NCBI RefSeq assembly: GCF_009931435.1
Contig: NZ_CP043414.1
Origin: Escherichia coli
GTDB taxonomy: Bacteria > Pseudomonadota > Gammaproteobacteria > Enterobacterales > Enterobacteriaceae
Length of the DNA: 64,000 nt
Direction: 5' to 3' (one strand)
Shown: positions 2,273 to 63,058 of the stretch, piece after piece
Position numbering within the stretch: position 1 is the first letter of the stretch
Layout: every line of letters begins with the position of its first letter
The notes under the pieces: model-generated
What the model was told of the DNA's origin: nothing
The model's database searches: none
What the model saw: only the letters and a program-made list of their open reading frames with translations
Program-made: the position numbers and the translations under genes

Positions 2273-5505
<3,233 letters not shown>

Positions 5506-47143: not shown

Positions 47144-49615
47144 TTAAGAATCAGCCTGACTCGGGATCAGTTTTTGCCAGATAGCTGAAACGCATTTTGC
47201 CTGGTAACGGGCGTCATCAAGTGCATTATGGCGCTCACCTTCGAATGGAATAGCCGTTCTGGCATCGAAGTCTATGGCTTTCCCCAGCTCAACGATTGTG
47301 CGTACATCGCGATCGTTGTAGTAACGCCACGGGCAGGGGATCCCCTGCCGTTCGTATGAACGGCGCAAAATCGTGTTGTCGAAGTTGGCTCCATTTCCCC
47401 AGACCTGAACAAAAAATTCACCGGAGTTTTCGTCGATAAATTCCCGCAATTGTAACAGTGCATCATCTAACGGGATTTCATCGGTCATAATGGCAGATTG
47501 CGCTTCGCGTGATTGTTTAAGCCACCATTTAATGGTGTCCCGATCAATGACTCCGCCAGCAGTTTCCAGATCGATAGTCTTACTAAATTCCGGTCCCATA
47601 TCTCCGGTTTGCGGATCGAAAAATATTGCACCTATTGAGATAATCGGGGCATCGGGATTTTTTCCCATGGTTTCAAGGTCGATCATCAGATGAATCCCCG
47701 CTCTGCTGGTGGATGTGAGATTATGATGACCGTTCGCCTTAATTAAGGGATCTGACGCCTCGCCAGTTTCACTATCGCTGGCATGATGCTGATTGCCGCC
47801 AGTGTTCTCCTTGTGCTGATGCGCAGTGCCTTCCATTTCCTCCGGATCATTTTCCTGAACTTCAGGCTGATTCTCTCCATCGAATATTTCCTGGTATGTT
47901 GCGTCACCCATCACCGCACCACAATCAGGGCAGTTGCCGCCACCGCTATGACCGCAGGCGGTGCAGATCTTTTCCGGTTCCTGTTGCACTACTGGTTCAG
48001 GTTGTTTCGTTTCTGGCTCGTTTTGTTGCGTATTTGGGCTGTTTTGTTCCGCTTTCTGGTCGTTCTGTTCCGTTTCTTGCTGGTTCTGGTTCACAGAATC
48101 GCGGGTCTGGATCCCCTTAACCCATTTCGGATCATTCGGGTCGCTAATCCCTTCAACAAATTCACCACGTGATACTGCAAGCAGTTCATCGGCGTCAGGC
48201 TGGCTGATATTGGCTGCCTGCATAATTTTGTTTACTTCGTCAGCGGTAACTTTTACTGACCCTGGTTGTGCGGTCGTGTCAGATGCACCAGTATTTTGTT
48301 GTGAACCTGAGTATGTACCGTTTTTGCGGGCGAAATATTCTTCTTTCGTGATTTCAGTAGCCCCAGCAGACAGCGCCTTATCCAGACCAGAAAGTTTGTT
48401 TGCGCGACCGTATTTTTCGCCATCCTTGTCGGTGAAGAGGAAGTAGAACGGCCCCTCACGTTCTACAGATGGTTCGACTTCCACTTTGCATTCGGTTTTT
48501 TCGTTGTCTGGAATTGCCGTTTCCACTGCATCAGTTTCTGGTACTGGCGACGAGAGAGTATCAGTTGCGCTCTGATTTGTTCCTTCATCTTCAAACACGC
48601 CCTTTGTAGTCAGGTATTCAGTAATGTATTTGTTCAGTGCCACAGGGTCTTTGTGAATGTCGATCGGACGTTCACGGACAAGGCCAAAAATAGTCTGGCG
48701 GTCGTAGCGAAGGGCATCAGGCTGTTTGCGCATTGATGCCGAGATACGCTTCCAGTCTTCGCGGTCGTTGTCGATAACTTCATTTTTTGCCCAGCGATGG
48801 ATGCTGCCGTCAATGTTTCCGGCATCTACATCACCAGGCCAGAGAGCGTAGGCCAGTTCGTCATCCAGTGTTTTCCATGTCTGCTTGTATTCGCGATGAA
48901 TGGCAGCAATGACCGGGTTGATTTTTCCTGTTGAATTTTCAGTGTGCTGTTGATTGGCTCTGGCGCGGGCGAGATCAACAACAGACGTGTATTTTCCGGC
49001 TTCCTTGCGTTCACCTTCGCGACGTTTTTTCCAGATGCGCATCTCTGCCTGAATTTCGGGCCATTTGGCACCAGGCTTACATTTATGCTTAACCCACCCG
49101 ATGGCATGCAGCTTAAGCTCCGGATACATAGCGTTAACTTCTGGCATTTTCATCAACGCTTCAACGATATGGCCGTCGAATGTTGCCATGTCTTCCTGCA
49201 ACAATTCCTGTGCGCTAATCACCATATCAACAGTGATGTTTTCACATGTGTGGAACTTAACCATGACAGCGTTCTGTACTTCAGGGGCTAGGTTGTCAAA
49301 AGTGACGTTCATCGGATCGGATTCAGTCTCGACCGGGACAAAGGAAGCAGACGCCTCATCCCAGCGGTTTTCCTGCATATATTCAGCATCCCAGGAATCG
49401 AGGGCAGGGCGGGGTATACCGGGTTTATCCTCGCAAACAAGAAATTTATAAGCGCAGTCCTGAGCAGCCGGATAATGTTCCAGGAATTGCCAGTGAAATT
49501 TTGCGCGGGCGCGACGTTCATCACCGGCTTCAATGGCAGTGGCTACAGCGACGGCACCTTCTTCCTTTATTGCCTGTTCGTCCGGAATGGCGGCGCAAAT
49601 AAAGACTTTACTCAT
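47144..49615 (-). CDS. prophage exonuclease with C-terminal DEDDh 3'-5' exonuclease domain
   Basis: 823-aa ORF; MIDLETMG (Exo I), WGNGANFD (Exo II), H-x4-D (Exo III); CTACG...CPDCG zinc knuckle; Q/E/N-rich linker. Confidence 0.8.
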   Translation of the reverse strand: MSKVFICAAIPDEQAIKEEGAVAVATAIEAGDERRARAKFHWQFLEHYPAAQDCAYKFLVCEDKPGIPRPALDSWDAEYMQENRWDEASASFVPVETESDPMNVTFDNLAPEVQNAVMVKFHTCENITVDMVISAQELLQEDMATFDGHIVEALMKMPEVNAMYPELKLHAIGWVKHKCKPGAKWPEIQAEMRIWKKRREGERKEAGKYTSVVDLARARANQQHTENSTGKINPVIAAIHREYKQTWKTLDDELAYALWPGDVDAGNIDGSIHRWAKNEVIDNDREDWKRISASMRKQPDALRYDRQTIFGLVRERPIDIHKDPVALNKYITEYLTTKGVFEDEGTNQSATDTLSSPVPETDAVETAIPDNEKTECKVEVEPSVEREGPFYFLFTDKDGEKYGRANKLSGLDKALSAGATEITKEEYFARKNGTYSGSQQNTGASDTTAQPGSVKVTADEVNKIMQAANISQPDADELLAVSRGEFVEGISDPNDPKWVKGIQTRDSVNQNQQETEQNDQKAEQNSPNTQQNEPETKQPEPVVQQEPEKICTACGHSGGGNCPDCGAVMGDATYQEIFDGENQPEVQENDPEEMEGTAHQHKENTGGNQHHASDSETGEASDPLIKANGHHNLTSTSRAGIHLMIDLETMGKNPDAPIISIGAIFFDPQTGDMGPEFSKTIDLETAGGVIDRDTIKWWLKQSREAQSAIMTDEIPLDDALLQLREFIDENSGEFFVQVWGNGANFDNTILRRSYERQGIPCPWRYYNDRDVRTIVELGKAIDFDARTAIPFEGERHNALDDARYQAKCVSAIWQKLIPSQADS

Positions 49616-49899: not shown

Positions 49900-50084
49900 T
49901 GCCAGCATCCTTTTTGTATCGGACGTAAACGGGCCAACATTGAAAGAATGCATATTTTATTTAATAGCTCCCGTTCGTGTTTTCTCTTGTTAATGGCATC
50001 TTCAGTAAATACAGGGTTACTGATAGTGACACCAATTTCAAAACAACCTTCAGACGTATTAACGTTTGGTAATAACGTTTCCAT
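49896..50084 (-). CDS. dicB: cell-division inhibitor DicB
   Basis: 62-aa ORF METLLPNVNTSEGCFEIGVTISNPVFTEDAINKRK..., recognised DicB. Confidence 0.85.
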   Translation of the reverse strand: METLLPNVNTSEGCFEIGVTISNPVFTEDAINKRKHERELLNKICILSMLARLRPIQKGCWQ

Positions 50085-50255
50085 TATCGCGTCCTCAACA
50101 ATGAATTTTGTGATGCGGTGCCTGGTGCTTCCAGGTGACGTTAACCAGTTAACAATTAACGCCGGATACAGAGAATCCACCCATAACACTGTTTTTGGTT
50201 TTAACTGTTCCGCGTGCGCTCAGCCGCATTCACCGCATCACAAAATTCACTTTAA

Positions 50256-50311
50256 AAAGGGCGGCAGAGCAGTCACGGAGTAAAACTGATACCGCCAAAC
50301 GTCACCAGAAA
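50256..50311 (-). ncRNA. dicF: DicF small regulatory RNA
   Basis: Minus strand reads TTTCTGGTGACGTTTGGCGGTATCAGTTTTACTCCGTGACTGCTCTGCCGCCC plus T-run, matching DicF as recalled; about 170 nt upstream of dicB. Confidence 0.75.
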
Positions 50312-51186: not shown

Positions 51187-51451
51187 GCTGACCTCATTTC
51201 CCCTTAACGCCGGGGTAGCGGAACAAAAACCTGCTGCATAGTTATTAAAGTTGTACCCTGCCGTCATGTTCTTACGCCTCGGGCTGGCTACTTAACCCCT
51301 GACCACTGCCTGGTAACTCGAAGTATTGCCCTGCATTCTGTGGAGCGGGGTGAGTTGGTATGAAAAGAAGGATACCCATAGGTATTTAAAAAGTAAATAC
51401 CCATGGGTGACTTTTTGCAGTGTCTTAACTGGTGACTAGTTGTTTGGTGAG

Positions 51452-51871
51452 CTATGATGCGTTTTGTGCTTTCTTTTTACGGATTTCTTCGTAGATCATA
51501 TTGTAATACTGTTTTTTCTCTTCAAGAGTTTTTAATAAGTTATCCGCTTCACTTTCTGGCAGTTCGTCTAAGAGATCTAAAAAAATACGTTGTCGTGGCG
51601 TTAGAACCCTTGTTTCATAACTGGAGGCTGTGTTCGTTGATGATGAAACGATACCATCCATCCATCCCCGGGGTAACCCAAAGGACTCTTCGATAATCTC
51701 CACCATATCATCAGCGATCCGTTTTTTTCCCTTTTTCCCCTCTGGGTACAACATTCTTGATACATAAGAAGGCTCGCGCCCGATCTTTCTGGCCACGTTA
51801 ACCGCTTTACCATCGCATTTCTCATCACGAATTTTGATGAGTTGCTGTCGTCTAAATTCATATTTGTCCAT
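51452..51871 (-). CDS. prophage repressor, DicA-like C-terminal domain with distinct N-terminal HTH
   Basis: 139-aa ORF; HTH-like VARKIGREPSYVSRM; C-terminal LDLLDELPESEADNLL resembles DicA; no SD before ATG. Confidence 0.7.
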   Translation of the reverse strand: MDKYEFRRQQLIKIRDEKCDGKAVNVARKIGREPSYVSRMLYPEGKKGKKRIADDMVEIIEESFGLPRGWMDGIVSSSTNTASSYETRVLTPRQRIFLDLLDELPESEADNLLKTLEEKKQYYNMIYEEIRKKKAQNAS

Positions 51872-51971
51872 AGGTAAATAATAGATGCGATTACTGCAAG
51901 GTAAACAACCTGTGGGTATTGACTTTTGTTTACCTGTAGGTATTCTTTGCTGTGTTTACTAAGGAGTAGCT
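51872..51971. promoter_or_regulatory. divergent promoter/operator region of the immunity switch
   Basis: AGGTAAATAA (51873), AGGTAAACAA (51899) and inverted TTGTTTACCT (51927) repeats around TTGACT; AAGGAG RBS for cro-like gene. Confidence 0.5.
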
Positions 51972-52253
51972 ATGGAAGAATTAAGAATATTTCTCAATTC
52001 TCTTTCGTCAGATGAACAGCGTATGTTTGCATGCGAGTGTGGTACCAGCATCGGTTATCTAAGAAAGGCATTGAGTAAAGGTCAAGTGTTAGGGGCATCG
52101 TTATGTGTCCTTATTGAGCGAGCCAGTAATGGTGAAGTTACACGTCAGCAACTAAGGCCTTTTGATTGGATGAATATTTGGCCCGAGCTGGAAGATACCA
52201 AAACGTTAACACAACCACTTTCTAGGAGCTTGATTCATGAAAATCAAGCATGA
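51972..52253 (+). CDS. Cro/YdaS-like HTH regulator
   Basis: 93-aa ORF divergent from repressor with AAGGAG RBS. Confidence 0.65.
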   Translation: MEELRIFLNSLSSDEQRMFACECGTSIGYLRKALSKGQVLGASLCVLIERASNGEVTRQQLRPFDWMNIWPELEDTKTLTQPLSRSLIHENQA

Positions 52254-52662
52254 ACACATCCGCATGGCGATGAATGCCTGGGCGCATCCGGACGGTGAAA
52301 AAGTTCCGGCAGCTGAAATAACCAGGGCTTATTTTGAACTGGGTATGACGTTCCCAGAACTGCATGACGACAGCCATCCGGAAGCCCTGGCTCGCAATAC
52401 CCAGAAAATTTTCCGCTGGGTAGAGAAAGACACCCCTGATGCAGTTGAAAAAATTCAGGCGTTGTTACCAGCGATCGAAAAGGCAATGCCACCTTTGCTG
52501 GTGGCCAGAATGCGCAGCCACAGTTCAGCTTATTTTCGGGAGCTGGTGGAGACGCGGGAGCGACTGGTGAGAGACGCTGATGATTTTGTCGCAGTGGCAA
52601 TCGCCGGTTTCAATCAGATGAACCGTGGTGGCCCGGCAGGAAATGCTGTGGCAGTGCATTGA
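52237..52662 (+). CDS. YdaT-like (CII-like) regulator
   Basis: 141-aa ORF starting MKIKHEHI as in Rac YdaT (recalled); 17-nt overlap with preceding gene. Confidence 0.55.
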   Translation: MKIKHEHIRMAMNAWAHPDGEKVPAAEITRAYFELGMTFPELHDDSHPEALARNTQKIFRWVEKDTPDAVEKIQALLPAIEKAMPPLLVARMRSHSSAYFRELVETRERLVRDADDFVAVAIAGFNQMNRGGPAGNAVAVH

Positions 52663-52733
52663 GTGATAATAGCCATATCGAATCGCTTCCGGCAACTCGT
52701 GAGTAAAAAGATTCGGTATCAGAAGAGGTGAGT

Positions 52734-53804
52734 ATGGCTAACGCCTGGCTCAGATTATGGCATGACATGCCAAATGACCCTAAGTGGCGAACAATTGCCA
52801 GGGTGTCAGGGCAGCCAATTGCAACAGTGATGGCAGTGTATATCCACCTCCTGGTGAGCGCGTCACGAAATGTCACGCGAGGTCACATTGATGTCACGAC
52901 AGAAGATTTGGCAAGTGCGCTCGACGTGACAGAAGAGGTAATTGATTCAATTTTGCAGACGATGCAGGGGCGGGTACTTGATGGTGATTTAATCACTGGA
53001 TGGGAAAAACGCCAGGTGCTTAAAGAGGACAACGGCAATATTTCGCAAACCGCAAAATCTCCTGCAGAGCGCAAGAGGGCGCAGCGAGAGAGGGAAAGAA
53101 AGCGGGAACAAAATGGCGATTGTCACGGCGCATCACGAAATGTCACGCACATGTCACGACGAGTCACGACAGATAAAGATACAGATAAAGATACAGATCA
53201 AGAAGATCAAAACACTATGGTCCATGGCGTAAAAAACGCTACGAACCAGGCAGGGGATGTTCAGACCGTCAATCCTGGTCAGCCAGCAGGCACGACACCG
53301 GAAGCCGATTCAGCGTATGCGCTGAAACCCGATTCGGGCGCTGTGCAGCAGGTGATGACCCAAAGGCCGGAACAATCACACCAACTGCAGCAGCCTGAAG
53401 CCGATTCCGCCATTCAGCGGGAAGCCGATCGGGTAGTCCCGGAAAACACCGGGCTGTCTGTGGGACGAGTGGATTATCCGGATGTGTTCGAACAGGTCTG
53501 GCGGGAGTACCCGTTGCGTGCCGGAGCAAACCCGAAGAAATCCGCTTTCAGTGCCTGGAAGGCCAGATTACGCGAGGGGGTGCCACCAGAGGCCATGCTG
53601 GATGGCGTGAGGCGTTACGCAAGATACTTGGCGGCTACCGGGAAAACGGGAACGGAATTTGTTCAGCGAGCGACGACGTTTTTTGGACCGGACCGGAATT
53701 TTGAGAACCCCTGGTTGCTCCCGGTAAGCGGCACGAACAACCAGCGTTGTGTGAATCATATTTCTGAACCGGATAACGAAATTCCGCCGGGCTTCAGGGG
53801 GTAA
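52734..53804 (+). CDS. replication-module protein (YdaU-like, putative initiator)
   Basis: ORF 52728..53804, ATG at 52734 after AGAGGTGAG; N-terminal WLRLWHDMPNDPKW; contains iteron clusters and an acidic DKDTDKDTD linker. Confidence 0.6.
   Translation: MANAWLRLWHDMPNDPKWRTIARVSGQPIATVMAVYIHLLVSASRNVTRGHIDVTTEDLASALDVTEEVIDSILQTMQGRVLDGDLITGWEKRQVLKEDNGNISQTAKSPAERKRAQRERERKREQNGDCHGASRNVTHMSRRVTTDKDTDKDTDQEDQNTMVHGVKNATNQAGDVQTVNPGQPAGTTPEADSAYALKPDSGAVQQVMTQRPEQSHQLQQPEADSAIQREADRVVPENTGLSVGRVDYPDVFEQVWREYPLRAGANPKKSAFSAWKARLREGVPPEAMLDGVRRYARYLAATGKTGTEFVQRATTFFGPDRNFENPWLLPVSGTNNQRCVNHISEPDNEIPPGFRG
52861..53169 (+). repeat. iteron-like repeats (putative prophage origin) inside the replication gene
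   Basis: GTCACG-type motifs at about 52862, 52872, 52882, 52893 (inverted at 52925) and 53122, 53132, 53142, 53153, 53163; TCACGAAATGTCACGC occurs twice. Confidence 0.55.
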
Positions 53805-54270: not shown

Positions 54271-54497
54271 ATTAAAGGGCATTAGTTCAGATATGCATTG
54301 ACATTTTCATGGCACAAGGTAGAGCTAGCGTGGTTGTTCGCTTTGTGCCAAGAGTGGTCATTGATAATATTTTGGTGGGTTACATCTGTCAATGTTTCAG
54401 GTGATATGATATACAAATAGCCAGACTTAGACTGGCATGCTGTTTATTTTTATATTATGGGTGTGCCACATGGATTTAAAACTTATTGAGATATGAC

Positions 54498-55523
54498 ATG
54501 GATACTTTTCATAATATTTTGCTTGAGCACATAGACAGCCTTTTAAAAGAGAGACTTGATTTATCTGGTGACGCTGATATCGAAAAAGAAATTAATAACC
54601 TAATTCCCAAAATAGTCATTGTCGTTAAAAAATCTCTTATTGGCTCGGCCAATGCAATGCTTAGAGAACATCGTTCTCTTTGTGATGAATTTGTTGAGAG
54701 AAATATTTCAAGATGGGCAGAGGCTTTTGATTTGCTCGAAACACTTATAGTGATATGCACGGAGTCCGGTGAAGAGTTCAATCGTTCTTATAGACCACAA
54801 GCTGCCTCTGAAGAGGATGTGGTTTTTGATTTAGTCGTTCGGCATCACGCAAGAGCTTGCCACATCGCCAACGAAATTTTGTGTCTCTTAAAGAATGGAT
54901 TTGCAGATGCTGCCCAAGCGAGATGGCGAGCACTTCATGAGGTAGCAGCCACAGCTATGTTTATAGCAAAGCATGGAAAAGAGTGTGCTGAGCGCTTTTA
55001 CTACCATGAAGTGGTTGATTCATATACTGGAATGTTGGAACACAAAAAGTACGAGCACCGGTTAGAAGCAAAAGGTCCAACTATTGAAGAAATAGCTGAG
55101 TGCAAAGTTCAATTTGATCTATTAATAAAAAAATACGGCAAAAAATATGCAGATAATTATGGGTGGGCATCTTATATTTTCCCTAACCATAATAAAGTGG
55201 GGTTTGGAGCTATTGAGAAAGATGTTCAGTTAGAACACATGCGCCCTTATTATAAGTGGGCGAGTCAGAATGTACACACCGGTTCCAAGGCAATGAGAAA
55301 TAGGCTTGGTCTCTGTGAAACTGGTGATGATATATTATTGGTCGGGCAAAGTGATTCAGGAATGGCTGATCCAGCCCATGCTACTGCTATTAGTTTGATG
55401 CAGATTACTGTGACACTTTTATTCTTAAAACCAACCATTGATCATGCCGTCATTTCAAAAATAATACAGGATTATTCTGATGAGATTGGAAATGTATTTC
55501 TTAAAATTGATAAGGGTAATTAA
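54498..55523 (+). CDS. orphan AT-rich hypothetical protein (341 aa from ATG; 345 aa from TTG at 54486), function unknown
   Basis: Uninterrupted 1-kb ORF; visibly AT-rich versus flanks (about 38-40% GC by eye); no TM segments, no P-loop; no recognised homologue. Confidence 0.7.
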   Translation: MDTFHNILLEHIDSLLKERLDLSGDADIEKEINNLIPKIVIVVKKSLIGSANAMLREHRSLCDEFVERNISRWAEAFDLLETLIVICTESGEEFNRSYRPQAASEEDVVFDLVVRHHARACHIANEILCLLKNGFADAAQARWRALHEVAATAMFIAKHGKECAERFYYHEVVDSYTGMLEHKKYEHRLEAKGPTIEEIAECKVQFDLLIKKYGKKYADNYGWASYIFPNHNKVGFGAIEKDVQLEHMRPYYKWASQNVHTGSKAMRNRLGLCETGDDILLVGQSDSGMADPAHATAISLMQITVTLLFLKPTIDHAVISKIIQDYSDEIGNVFLKIDKGN

Positions 55524-55905: not shown

Positions 55906-56109
55906 TTGGCCAGGTGACGGGAGTTAAGTAGAATGGCTGCGGGTGCTTGAGGCTATCTGTCTCAGGCATGAACACCAAAGGCAGATAGAGAAAAGCCCCA
56001 GTTAACATTACGCGTCCTGCAAGACGCTTAACATTAATCTGAGGCTCAATCTATGAACGGCAAATCTAGGTTAGCCTCTTACGTGCCGAAAGGCAAGGAG
56101 AAGCAGGCT
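55906..56109 (+). promoter_or_regulatory. hok promoter and 5' leader
   Basis: TTGGCC-17 bp-TAGAAT; leader GCGGGTGCTTGAGG (55939-55952) complementary to 3' CCTCAATGCACCCGC (56315-56329), consistent with hok fold-back pairing. Confidence 0.5.
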
Positions 56110-56265
56110 ATGAAGCAGCAAAAGGCGATGTTAATCGCCCTGATCGTCATCTGTTTAACCGTCATAGTGACGGCACTGGTAACGAGGAAAGACCTCTGCG
56201 AGGTACGAATCCGAACCGGCCAGACGGAGGTCGCTGTCTTCACAGTCTACGAACCTGAGGAGTAA
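56110..56265 (+). CDS. hokD: Hok/Gef-family type I toxin
   Basis: 51-aa MKQQKAMLIALIVICLTVIVTALVTRKDLCEVRIRTGQTEVAVFTVYEPEE, near-identical to K-12 HokD/RelF as recalled. Confidence 0.9.
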   Translation: MKQQKAMLIALIVICLTVIVTALVTRKDLCEVRIRTGQTEVAVFTVYEPEE

Positions 56266-59453: not shown

Positions 59454-59753
59454 AAAAATTCCTTAATACTGATAACTTGGCGCACTATACACACGTTCCT
59501 GAAGAAAGCTATAGTTTTTTGATGGGGTTGAAGATGGCTGGATGTCTAAAATAAACATTGCTTCATATGTTCAACTATGCGTTAATGATTGCGTCGGTTT
59601 GAAGAACAGACGATATACGAAGTAGTTTACTAAAGCAGTTCTCATTTCAGGTGTTATTCACTTATTCCTTCTTTGAGTCTCTCCAATTAAGTACGAAGTC
59701 GTTTCTGTTATGCAAACCATTTATGCCGAAAGGCTCAAGTTAAGGAATGTAGA

Positions 59754-59969
59754 ATGTCAAATAAAATGACTGGTTTAGTAAAATGGTTTAACGCTGATAA
59801 AGGTTTCGGCTTTATTTCTCCTGTTGATGGTAGTAAAGATGTGTTTGTGCATTTTTCTGCGATTCAGAATGATAATTATCGAACCTTATTTGAAGGTCAA
59901 AAGGTTACCTTCTCTATAGAGAGTGGTGCTAAAGGTCCTGCAGCAGCAAATGTCATCATTACTGATTAA
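59754..59969 (+). CDS. cspB: cold-shock protein CspB
   Basis: 71-aa ORF with RNP1-like KGFGFI motif; about 300-nt upstream leader typical of cold-shock genes. Confidence 0.9.
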
Positions 59970-60250
59970 AATTCATCGCTCGTCTGTATACGATAACGAA
60001 GAAGGCTGATGCCTGAGTAGAGATACGGACAGAGTAGTGAATATTGGATTTCTTTAATAAAAATTAAGGAGGTCCAATACATGAAACAATGGCCAGCATA
60101 TTTGGCAAAATCTTAATCAGGAAAAGTATGCTAACCATTGTGGTGAAGTGCAGGTTTGCTGCATGAATAGTTTTACAGCAGAAGCTAACTGCTGGCATGG
60201 CAAAACAAAGTGCGTAAGTGGATGACTCCCACAAAAAGCACCACAATCTC

Positions 60251-62278: not shown

Positions 62279-62641
62279 GGTAATATTAAATCGGAACATT
62301 TACATCGCGGAATGTAAAATTTAAATAAAAAGGACTCTTCCATGAGCCAAAATTCCTGAAATCTTAAGGGTAAGATAAAAGGTCTTAATCAGAATGACAC
62401 GTTATTATTAATAAATAAAGCTATTCTTTCATTGCTGTGTTTTTCTTTACAAAAGTAATCCTTGCTATGGGTGGTTAATCATGCGTTAATGGTGTTCTGG
62501 TTTGTTACAAATTTATCTGAAGCAGTCATTGTTATAATTTTATTATTTGTACCTCTTGAGATTTCCTTGTTGGTTTTTCTCTCTGATATTTTTTTTCGGA
62601 CCATTCTGCCCAAGGGCTAATTTCTTCAAAAGGTAATAATT

Positions 62642-62854
62642 ATGTCTAACAAAATGACTGGTTTAGTGAAATGGTTTAACCCTGAAAAAGGTTTTGGTTT
62701 CATCACGCCGAAAGATGGCAGCAAAGATGTGTTTGTCCATTTCTCAGCAATTCAGAGCAACGATTTCAAAACATTAACTGAGAATCAGGAAGTTGAATTT
62801 GGTATTGAGAACGGACCTAAAGGCCCTGCCGCTGTTCATGTAGTGGCGCTTTGA
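62642..62854 (+). CDS. cspI: cold-shock protein CspI
   Basis: 70-aa CSD ORF with KGFGFI motif and AT-rich leader. Confidence 0.9.
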
Positions 62855-63058
62855 GGTAGACAATATTACAAACCATATTCACTTTAGATGCCCGTGTTGT
62901 CATGGTTCCCAGTATAGAACATCATCTTTTGATGTTTCTGACATGAATCCTTTCGGGGCAAAATGTATCTTTTGTAAATCAATGATGATTACATTTGATA
63001 ATATTTCACAATACTTAAATGCCAGCCGTCTGTCGTTGGATTTAAAAAAGTGAAAATG

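What the first reader, a model, noticed from the sequence alone, without database searches (positions are those of the whole stretch)
51972..52662. YdaS/YdaT-like pair overlapping by 17 nt
A cro-like HTH gene overlaps a gene starting MKIKHEHI, as Rac YdaT does (from memory). This pair has been discussed as toxin-antitoxin-like or CII-like; here it sits in a Qin-type backbone.
Basis: partly seen in the sequence, partly recalled or inferred. Interest (0 to 1): 0.3.

Follow-up and report, generated by a model that had tools for sequence, protein, structure and literature searches.

The report
Prophage Cro and CII-like YdaT genes
These two overlapping genes are the well-known Cro-like and CII-like (YdaT) regulators of an E. 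coli lambdoid prophage's lysis-lysogeny switch, not a toxin-antitoxin pair, and they are ordinary and already annotated.

Summary
A 93-aa HTH gene (51972-52253) and a 141-aa gene starting MKIKHEHI (52237-52662) overlap by 17 nt. Both proteins are identical to RefSeq entries, annotated "YdaS family helix-turn-helix protein" and "toxin YdaT family protein".

The second protein differs at 3 of 141 residues from the CFT073 YdaT (PDB 3C4R matches at E 1e-90). It is 84% identical to CP-933P YdaT (PDB 8BT1) and 33-35% identical to Rac YdaT.

The experimentally defined YdaT-box, TTGATT-N6-AATCAA, occurs once in the 64 kb, at 52230-52247. It spans the ydaT start codon inside the overlap.

The pair lies between a divergent leaderless-looking repressor gene, which has paired OR/OL-type operators, and a replication-initiator gene. 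This is the cro/cII position of a lambdoid immunity region, in a prophage at the Qin (rspB) site.

The ydaT body occurs in 3029 of 5426 complete E. coli genomes. This repressor-plus-cro type occurs in only 823. ydaT sits behind at least five unrelated cro types in the loci fetched, so it is a modular CII cassette rather than half of an obligate toxin-antitoxin pair.

The 17-nt overlap follows from reading frame. The conserved box carries a TGA in each of the three frames, and incoming cro genes here ended with either a 4-nt or a 17-nt overlap.

Already known; low interest.

The parts
51452..51871 (-). Divergent 139-aa repressor gene in the CI / PaaR2 / DicA position. It has no S24 peptidase domain.
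   Evidence: phrog_5736 transcriptional regulator, 4.4e-70. Weak homology to PaaR2 (E 9e-9) and to the DicA C-terminus (E 1e-7; NCBIfam DicA 2.8e-5, below cut-off). Identical to WP_000362155.1, annotated 'hypothetical protein'.
51372..51408 (.). OL-type operator pair: two inverted copies of ACCYRTRGGTAT. The same sequence also forms a terminator-like hairpin just downstream of the repressor gene on the minus strand.
   Evidence: Exact motif matches at 51372-51385 and 51397-51408. 15-nt inverted repeat, 93% complementary. Terminator-like hit.
51369..51397 (-). Putative PL (TTTACT-17-TATCCT), a paralogue of PR, pointing into ydfA-ydfB-ydfC-DicF-dicB.
   Evidence: Local alignment of PR and PL regions. 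20-nt repeat I2, 85%. Inferred, not tested.
51878..51905 (-). Putative PRM (TTTACC-16-TATTAT). The -10 hexamer ends 7 nt from the A of the repressor ATG and there is no Shine-Dalgarno sequence, so a leaderless mRNA is likely.
   Evidence: Promoter scan and sequence. Analogy to the leaderless paaR2 and lambda cI transcripts (PMC8630535). Inferred.
51908..51943 (+). OR-type operators: ACCTGTGGGTAT (51908-51919) and ACCTGTAGGTAT (51932-51943), flanking or overlapping the PR -35 and -10. A weaker third copy, CCATAGGTAAATAA, lies at 51868-51881 over the repressor start.
   Evidence: All five exact hits (four sites, one palindromic and counted on both strands) lie in OR or OL. 7 matches with up to 1 mismatch; 0 of 100 shuffles reached 7. 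Repeat families D2, D3, D5.
51919..51946 (+). Putative PR (TTGACT-16-TATTCT) driving ydaS-ydaT and the replication genes.
   Evidence: Promoter scan, 9 of 12.
51972..52253 (+). Cro-like HTH gene (YdaS-type, 93 aa).
   Evidence: phrog_35, 4.8e-23. PDB 8C7K/8CO2 'Cro' of CP-933P, E 1e-10. Pfam YdaS 25.8 bits, below GA 30. Identical to WP_000391950.1.
52230..52247 (.). YdaT-box TTGATTcatgaaAATCAA with the ydaT ATG in its spacer. This is the binding site of the YdaT tetramer.
   Evidence: Only match with up to 1 mismatch in 64 kb. Same sequence as the footprinted CP-933P OM site (PMC9986795) and 1 nt from the Rac YdaT-box (PMC11879457). It marks the left edge of the DNA block conserved across immunity types.
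52237..52662 (+). ydaT: CII-like transcriptional activator, 141 aa, with a POU-like HTH domain and a C-terminal tetramerisation helix.
   Evidence: Pfam PF06254 39.6 bits, above GA 21. phrog_163 'CII-like transcriptional activator', 6.3e-46. PDB 3C4R E 1e-90 and 8BT1 E 5e-80. R60/W61 invariant.
52173..52201 (-). Candidate core of a PRE-like leftward promoter (TTGGTA-17-AATATT) about 30 bp downstream of the box. Low confidence.
   Evidence: Lenient scan, 8 of 12 matches. Candidates in the other cro types lie at inconsistent distances, so this is not supported by conservation.
52728..53804 (+). Replication initiator / replisome organiser in the lambda O position. It fixes the pair as the cro-cII slot.
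   Evidence: phrog_3729, 1e-255. PGAP 'phage replisome organizer protein'.

Best explanation
The two genes are the rightward early regulators of the immunity region of a lambdoid prophage integrated at the Qin (rspB) site of E. coli.

The 93-aa protein is the Cro analogue. It is made from PR and, together with the divergent 139-aa repressor, acts on the ACCYRTRGGTAT operators in OR (51868-51943) and OL (51372-51408).

The 141-aa protein is YdaT, the functional analogue of lambda CII. It should form a tetramer through its C-terminal helix and bind the TTGATT-N6-AATCAA box that spans its own start codon (52230-52247). From there it should activate a leftward, PRE-like promoter that reads antisense through cro into the repressor gene, favouring establishment or maintenance of repression.

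The 17-nt overlap is a by-product of mosaic assembly. The conserved block starts at the box, and the sequence TTGATTCATGAAAATCAAGCATGA has a TGA in every frame. A non-homologous cro gene joined to it therefore ends 3 nt before the ATG, or with a 4-nt or a 17-nt overlap, depending on frame. In this window the frame gives 17 nt and the tail ...IHENQA*.

Shown here: homology, the box, the operators, gene order and the modular distribution. Inferred from CP-933P and Rac experiments: tetramer formation, box binding and promoter activation. Not located: the PRE core promoter.
For: - **YdaT identity.** Pfam above threshold. phrog_163 CII-like activator. PDB 3C4R at E 1e-90 and CP-933P YdaT 8BT1 at E 5e-80. 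84% identity to CP-933P YdaT and 35% to Rac YdaT, with R60/W61 invariant. 3 differences in 141 residues from the CFT073 protein.
- **The box.** Exact TTGATTN6AATCAA at 52230-52247, unique in the window. It is identical to the DNase-footprinted OM site of CP-933P (PMC9986795). It is 1 nt from the Rac YdaT-box, whose mutation abolishes a 29-fold YdaT-dependent activation of the reverse promoter (PMC11879457).
- **Cro identity.** phrog_35. E 1e-10 to the CP-933P Cro/YdaS structures.
- **Context.** Divergent repressor related to PaaR2 and DicA. Operator motif found only in OR and OL. PR and PL are paralogous. The replication initiator lies immediately downstream.
- **Modularity.** The ydaT body is in 3029 genomes at 5393 places, against 823 genomes for this repressor-plus-cro type. 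Five cro types of 38% identity or less sit upstream of a near-invariant ydaT 5' end, with only 4-nt or 17-nt overlaps.
- **Toxicity.** CP-933P YdaT showed no toxicity and activated PRE933P in vivo (PMC8630535).
Against: - No experiment exists on this exact allele or on this immunity type.
- The PRE-like core promoter is not identified. The best candidate matches only 8 of 12 positions, and its position is not conserved across cro types.
- In CP-933P the published effect of YdaT on repressor levels is modest. The NAR 2025 authors note that CP-933P YdaT does not seem to affect PaaR2.
- Binding of the cro-like protein and the repressor to the ACCYRTRGGTAT sites is inferred from position alone.
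- An exact box would occur by chance in a 64-kb window fairly often: at one mismatch or fewer, 39 of 100 shuffles gave at least one hit. Its significance rests on its position and conservation, not on its rarity.
Confidence: 0.88

Rival explanations
1. The pair is a type II toxin-antitoxin module: YdaT (or YdaS) is a toxin and the partner neutralises it, as the Pfam and PGAP names ('YdaT_toxin', 'YdaS_toxin', 'toxin YdaT family protein') imply.
For: Database names. A small overlapping two-gene operon with an HTH first gene. Rac YdaT is toxic when induced, causing filamentation and death (PMC11879457). Prolonged overexpression of CP-933P YdaS causes growth defects (PMC8630535).
Against: The two genes are not a conserved pair. 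Near-identical ydaT follows at least five unrelated cro types, and ydaT is in 3029 genomes against 823 for this cro. YdaT is a DNA-binding tetramer with a defined operator (PMC9986795). CP-933P YdaT, 84% identical to this one, showed no toxicity (PMC8630535). The abstract of PMC11879457 reports YdaT binding upstream of rcsA, raising RcsA with broad effects on cell division, motility and capsule synthesis, so toxicity by misregulation is the likelier route. The gene position is that of cro/cII, between the repressor and the replication genes.
Confidence: 0.04
2. YdaT is an inert remnant in a decaying prophage, with conserved sequence but no current regulatory role, so the overlap and box are fossils.
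For: Many Qin-site prophages are defective. K-12 Qin carries only a 96-aa YdaT-like N-terminal domain, YdfX, and YdaT(1-96) neither tetramerises nor binds DNA (PMC9986795). One E. coli hit shows a deleted ydaT (H32).
Against: Here the ORF is full length, with an intact tetramerisation helix and the invariant R60/W61. The box is perfect. The repressor, cro, operators and replication gene are all intact. The gene is kept at 84% nucleotide identity or more in 56% of complete E. coli genomes. The equally 'cryptic' CP-933P and Rac copies are functional in experiments.
Confidence: 0.06
3. YdaT acts mainly as an autorepressor or translational roadblock. By sitting on the box that covers its own SD-ATG region and the end of cro, it shuts down rightward transcription into ydaT and the replication genes rather than activating a leftward promoter.
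For: The box spans the ydaT start codon. The Acta D paper repeatedly calls YdaT a 'repressor' and places OM over a transcription start.
Against: In Rac, ydaT expression changed little when YdaT bound the box, while racR expression rose steeply (PMC11879457). In CP-933P, YdaT turned on PRE933P (PMC8630535).
Confidence: 0.1

Closest known systems
YdaT of E. coli CFT073 (PDB 3C4R) and YdaT of prophage CP-933P / Sp12 of E. coli O157:H7 (PDB 8BT1; PMC9986795, PMC8630535)
   Same: 141 aa. 3 substitutions against the CFT073 protein and 84% identity to CP-933P YdaT. Same recognition-helix region (ALARNTQKIFRW). The same exact TTGATTN6AATCAA box spans the ATG. Same position between a cro-like gene and the replication genes. 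CFT073 carries the same repressor and an almost identical cro with the same 17-nt overlap.
   Different: Compared with CP-933P, the cro is only 32-33% identical and overlaps by 17 nt instead of 4. The repressor is only distantly related to PaaR2. The operators are ACCYRTRGGTAT rather than GTTTAGTAA-type. There is no paaA2-parE2 toxin-antitoxin cassette behind the repressor; ydfA-ydfB-ydfC-DicF-dicB follow instead.
RacR-YdaS-YdaT of the Rac prophage of E. coli K-12 (PMC11879457)
   Same: Same three-gene architecture. YdaT is homologous over its full length (33-35%), with the same MKIKHEHI start encoded by a near-identical box (ATGATTCATGAAAATCAA). YdaT activates a reverse promoter feeding the repressor.
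   Different: RacR is unrelated to the repressor here. YdaS similarity is limited to about 28 residues. The Rac genes are 22 nt apart and do not overlap. Rac YdaT also binds the racR-ydaS intergenic region and host rcsA and is toxic, and none of this is known for the CP-933P/CFT073 type.
DicA-DicC-YdfX of K-12 Qin
   Same: Same chromosomal site and backbone (rspB, ydfA-D, DicF, dicB, hokD). The cro-like gene and the YdaT-like gene overlap by 17 nt in the same frame. The repressor C-terminus resembles that of DicA.
   Different: DicC and DicA are a different immunity type. YdfX is only the N-terminal domain (96 aa, 37-42% identity) and its box is degenerate (TTGAACaatgaaAATCAC).
Lambda Cro / CII / PRE
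   Same: Gene order cI - OR - cro - cII - O. The activator site overlaps the 5' end of the activator's own gene. A leftward establishment promoter is antisense to cro. The regulator is tetrameric.
   Different: No sequence match to the Pfam CII family. YdaT has a POU-like domain and 222 symmetry and recognises an inverted repeat, whereas CII recognises the direct repeat TTGC-N6-TTGC (PMC9986795).

Membership tests
YdaT family (Pfam PF06254; CII-like activators of lambdoid prophages) | Sequence match above the curated Pfam threshold | tested here: met
   39.6 bits against a gathering score of 21. phrog_163, 6.3e-46.
YdaT family (Pfam PF06254; CII-like activators of lambdoid prophages) | Full-length homology to experimentally characterised members (CP-933P, Rac) | tested here: met
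   84% identity to CP-933P YdaT and 35% to Rac YdaT. PDB 8BT1 E 5e-80 and 3C4R E 1e-90.
YdaT family (Pfam PF06254; CII-like activators of lambdoid prophages) | Conserved Arg60 in recognition helix alpha-3, the only fully conserved residue of that helix per PMC9986795 | tested here: met
   R60 and W61 are invariant in the 4-sequence alignment.
YdaT family (Pfam PF06254; CII-like activators of lambdoid prophages) | C-terminal helix alpha-6 with a hydrophobic core (I103, L110, V111, V114, F117, V118, A121 in CP-933P) that forms the tetramer | tested here: met
   The window protein has L103, L110, V111, A114, F117, V118, A121. The oligomeric state itself cannot be tested here.
YdaT family (Pfam PF06254; CII-like activators of lambdoid prophages) | Cognate YdaT-box TTGATT-N6-AATCAA at the cro/ydaT junction with the ATG in the spacer | tested here: met
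   Exact match at 52230-52247, unique in the window. Conserved across loci.
YdaT family (Pfam PF06254; CII-like activators of lambdoid prophages) | Activates a leftward PRE-type promoter | not testable with these tools
   Only a weak candidate promoter was found. Activity is shown for CP-933P and Rac in the literature.
YdaS family (Pfam PF15943) / Cro-like HTH | Sequence match above the curated Pfam threshold | tested here: not met
   25.8 bits against a gathering score of 30, and only residues 35-66 match. PGAP names the identical protein 'YdaS family helix-turn-helix protein' in one genome and 'transcriptional regulator' in most.
YdaS family (Pfam PF15943) / Cro-like HTH | Homology to characterised YdaS/Cro of CP-933P and Rac | tested here: met
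   CP-933P YdaS (PDB 8C7K/8CO2) E 1e-10 over 72 residues, 32-33% identity. Rac YdaS matches over only a 28-residue stretch, E 1e-6.
YdaS family (Pfam PF15943) / Cro-like HTH | First gene of the rightward operon, divergent from the repressor across an operator-bearing spacer | tested here: met
   100-bp spacer with back-to-back promoter-like sites and repeated operators.
Type II toxin-antitoxin module | The two genes are an obligate, co-inherited pair | tested here: not met
   ydaT is in 3029 genomes (5393 places) against 823 genomes for this cro and repressor. Five cro types of 38% identity or less lie upstream of the same ydaT.
Type II toxin-antitoxin module | One product is toxic and is neutralised by direct binding of the other | not testable with these tools
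   Literature: no toxicity for CP-933P YdaT (PMC8630535). Rac YdaT is toxic when induced, and its paper reports YdaT binding upstream of rcsA and raising RcsA (PMC11879457 abstract).
Lambda CII family (sequence family) | Sequence homology to lambda CII | tested here: not met
   No Pfam CII-family hit at E 0.01 or better. YdaT is a functional analogue only (PMC9986795).

The most novel reading that the evidence does not exclude
The most novel reading the evidence allows has two parts. First, this immunity type is an uncharacterised lambdoid specificity: a 139-aa repressor without a peptidase domain that PGAP calls 'hypothetical protein', a 93-aa cro, and ACCYRTRGGTAT operators at OR and OL. Second, its YdaT, like Rac YdaT, might also bind host promoters and rewire host regulation or become toxic when the prophage is derepressed. 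A minor further possibility is that the YdaT-box, with stop codons in all three frames and the ydaT ATG in its spacer, serves as a preferred recombination joint. That would let any cro/immunity cassette be exchanged while keeping cII expression intact.
Probability: 0.15. Interest if true: 0.35.

Novelty: already known. Interest (0 to 1): 0.1.

Why it matters
It matters little beyond correct annotation. The locus illustrates that the database label 'toxin YdaT family protein' is misleading. The explanation of the 4-nt and 17-nt overlaps may help people annotating lambdoid prophages: a conserved box with a stop codon in every frame sits at the mosaic boundary. The observation that one ydaT cassette serves many immunity types may help in the same way.

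Tried and rejected
- **PRE-like promoter.** The standard scan found nothing leftward between 51972 and 52300. A lenient scan gave one 8-of-12 candidate. The same scan on five other loci gave candidates at inconsistent distances, or none. The promoter is therefore left unassigned.
- **Secondary YdaT sites.** Allowing 3 mismatches gave 39 hits in the window against 45 expected, none close to the box. There is no evidence for OL/OR-type flanking sites or a looping partner.
- **OOP-like antisense RNA.** I considered one built from the promoter-like site at 52695-52666 and the hairpin at 52488-52505. Both are at chance frequency. The stem has a mismatch in CP-933P and the ydaT-O spacer is not homologous. 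Rfam found nothing there. Not adopted.
- **Repressor homologues.** The repressor was compared with RacR and showed no similarity. A PDB sequence search gave only insignificant winged-helix hits.
- **Structure prediction.** Not run, because a crystal structure of an almost identical protein (3 substitutions in the CFT073 sequence) already exists.

Full report
**1. The observation**

The window has an ATG-initiated ORF at 51972-52253 (+, 93 aa), preceded by AAGGAG. A second ORF lies at 52237-52662 (+, 141 aa, MKIKHEHIRMAMNAW...), preceded by AGGAG.

Both are real genes. The region is 99.9% identical to many E. coli chromosomes. The three proteins of the module are identical to RefSeq WP_000391950.1 ("YdaS family helix-turn-helix protein" or "transcriptional regulator"), WP_000693832.1 ("toxin YdaT family protein") and WP_000362155.1 ("hypothetical protein").

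**2. What the genes are**

ORF 2 passes the Pfam YdaT threshold (39.6 bits, cut-off 21) and hits phrog_163 "CII-like transcriptional activator" at 6e-46.
- It matches PDB 3C4R end to end at E 1e-90 and PDB 8BT1, the YdaT of prophage CP-933P, at E 5e-80.
- It differs at three residues from the YdaT of strain CFT073. PMC9986795 gives E. coli O6:H1 as the source of 3C4R.
- Identity is 84% to CP-933P YdaT and 33-35% to Rac YdaT of K-12, which does begin MKIKHEHI.
- R60/W61 of the recognition helix are invariant, and the hydrophobic positions of the tetramerisation helix are conserved (features from PMC9986795).

ORF 1 is a Cro-type HTH protein.
- It hits phrog_35 at 4.8e-23.
- It matches the CP-933P YdaS/Cro structures 8C7K and 8CO2 at E 1e-10, with 32-33% identity.
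- It is below the Pfam YdaS gathering score (25.8 against 30) and matches Rac YdaS over only 28 residues.

**3. Surroundings**

Upstream and divergent lies a 139-aa gene (51452-51871, -). It hits phrog_5736 "transcriptional regulator" at 4e-70. It is distantly related to PaaR2 of CP-933P (E 9e-9) and to the C-terminus of DicA (E 1e-7). It is unrelated to RacR.

The 100-bp spacer holds two back-to-back promoter-like sites:
- PR: TTGACT-16-TATTCT, 51919-51946.
- PRM: TTTACC-16-TATTAT, 51905-51878.

The PRM -10 hexamer ends 7 nt from the A of the repressor ATG, with no Shine-Dalgarno sequence between them. A leaderless transcript is therefore likely, as shown for paaR2 and lambda cI (PMC8630535). 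This is an inference.

The motif ACCYRTRGGTAT gives exact hits at only four sites in the 64 kb. Two are in the spacer (51908, 51932). Two form an inverted pair just beyond the repressor gene (51372-51385, 51397-51408). None of 100 shuffles reached the observed count. The second cluster carries a paralogue of PR on the minus strand, TTTACT-17-TATCCT. That makes an OL/PL pointing into ydfA-ydfB-ydfC-DicF-dicB.

Downstream of ORF 2 comes a replication initiator (phrog_3729, 1e-255). The gene order is therefore cI - OR - cro - cII - O.

The prophage sits next to rspB. It carries dicB, DicF (Rfam 76.7 bits), ydfA-D, hokD/sok and csp leaders, so the "Qin-type backbone" is correct.

**4. Mechanism**

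CP-933P YdaT is a tetramer whose high-affinity site is the inverted repeat TTGATT-N6-AATCAA at the ydaS/ydaT junction (PMC9986795). It switches on the otherwise silent leftward promoter PRE933P and showed no toxicity (PMC8630535).

Rac YdaT binds ATGATTCATGAAAATCAA, with the ydaT ATG in the spacer. It activates the reverse promoter PracR4 up to 29-fold in a box-dependent way and raises racR expression (PMC11879457).

The window contains TTGATTCATGAAAATCAA at 52230-52247. This is the only match with one mismatch or fewer in 64 kb. It lies exactly across the ydaT start codon and inside the 17-nt overlap.

I therefore conclude that ORF 2 works as the CII analogue of this prophage and ORF 1 as its Cro. 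The core of the leftward promoter could not be located. The best candidate (52201-52173) matches only 8 of 12 consensus positions, and comparable scans in other cro types give inconsistent positions.

**5. Why 17 nt**

I aligned the junction from the window, CP-933P, a P22-Cro-type locus and Rac. All similarity begins at ...GATTCATGAAAATCAAGCATGA(A/G)CACATC, and upstream of that the sequences are unrelated.

In eleven loci, five cro types of 38% identity or less precede an almost invariant ydaT 5' end. The conserved string TTGATTCATGAAAATCAAGCATGA contains a TGA in each of the three frames. An incoming cro gene therefore ends 3 nt before the ATG, at ATGA (4-nt overlap), or at GCATGA (17-nt overlap).

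The sampled loci show only 4-nt and 17-nt overlaps, apart from Rac, whose ydaS stops 22 nt earlier. Two otherwise unrelated cro proteins (24% identity) share the tail IHENQA* because the box encodes it.

The same logic explains why MKIKHEHI is conserved between proteins that are only 33% identical: those codons are also the operator.

**6. Not a toxin-antitoxin pair**

The ydaT body occurs in 3029 of 5426 complete E. coli genomes, at 5393 places. This repressor-plus-cro type occurs in 823 genomes. ydaT is thus a cassette shared by many immunity types, like cII in lambda/434 hybrids (the hybrid comparison is from my own knowledge of established work).

Together with the published lack of toxicity of the 84%-identical CP-933P protein, this leaves the toxin-antitoxin reading very unlikely. 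The names "YdaT_toxin" and "toxin YdaT family protein" are historical.

**7. Comparison and novelty**

The closest known systems are the identical arrangement in CFT073 and the CP-933P immunity region. Relative to CP-933P, this locus differs in four ways:
- its cro (32-33% identity, and a 17-nt rather than 4-nt overlap);
- its repressor;
- its operators;
- the absence of the paaA2-parE2 cassette.

K-12 Qin has the homologous slot occupied by dicC/ydfX with the same 17-nt overlap. YdfX is a 96-aa YdaT-type N-terminal domain, so a YdaT-type gene in a Qin backbone is the rule, not an oddity.

Everything about the finding is already annotated or published. What remains uncharacterised is the specificity of this particular repressor/cro/operator set.

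**Verdict**

The finding is already known and of low interest.

Noticed in passing
L006 17347-17851 (K-12 Qin dicC/ydfX): K-12 Qin's dicC and ydfX overlap by the same 17 nt in the same frame, over a degenerate box (TTGAACaatgaaAATCAC). YdfX (96 aa) aligns to the N-terminal DNA-binding domain of YdaT (37-42% identity) and lacks the tetramerisation helix, so it is probably a truncated CII-type remnant.
   Followed up: partly
window 52488-52505 and 52666-52695 (minus strand): A terminator-like hairpin lies inside ydaT, and a promoter-like site (TTGCCG-18-TATTAT) lies in the ydaT/replication-gene spacer. Their positions recall lambda's OOP antisense RNA. Both are at chance frequency, the stem has a mismatch in CP-933P, and the spacer is not conserved.
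   Followed up: partly
window 51372-51408: The OL-type operator pair is also a 15-bp-stem hairpin followed by a T-run, immediately after the repressor gene on the minus strand. The same sequence could serve as both terminator and operators.
   Followed up: partly
window 50259-50310 (-) and 50052-50261 (-): DicF sRNA (76.7 bits, above gathering score) lies upstream of dicB. There is an adjacent sub-threshold STnc100 match (38.7 against 47 bits).
   Followed up: no
window 55941-56115 (+): sok antitoxin RNA (110 bits), which from the matching gene order in L001 belongs to the hokD type I toxin-antitoxin locus, lies downstream of the replication genes.
   Followed up: no
window 59593-59985 and 62496-62881 (+): Two cspA-type thermoregulator leaders (159 and 114 bits), presumably upstream of cold-shock genes as in K-12 Qin (cspB, cspF, cspI).
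   Followed up: no
window 54486-55523 (+): A 345-aa DUF5677 protein is encoded between the DUF977 gene and hokD. It has no counterpart at this position in CP-933P or K-12 Qin, so it may be cargo.
   Followed up: no
window 51840-51860 / 52133-52153: A 21-nt inverted repeat (86% complementary) links the 5' coding region of the repressor gene to the middle of the cro-like gene. Unexplained, possibly chance.
   Followed up: no
window 47144-49615 (-): A full-length 823-aa exonuclease (YdfE_N/YdfE_C/Rv2179c-like domains in the homologous CP-933P gene). K-12 Qin has only the ydfE pseudogene interrupted by IS2.
   Followed up: no
L005, L010, L012 (E. coli chromosomes): The same ydaT sits behind a P22-Cro-type gene and a 238-aa LexA-family (S24 peptidase) repressor. 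YdaT therefore serves both SOS-cleavable repressor types and ones without a peptidase domain.
   Followed up: partly
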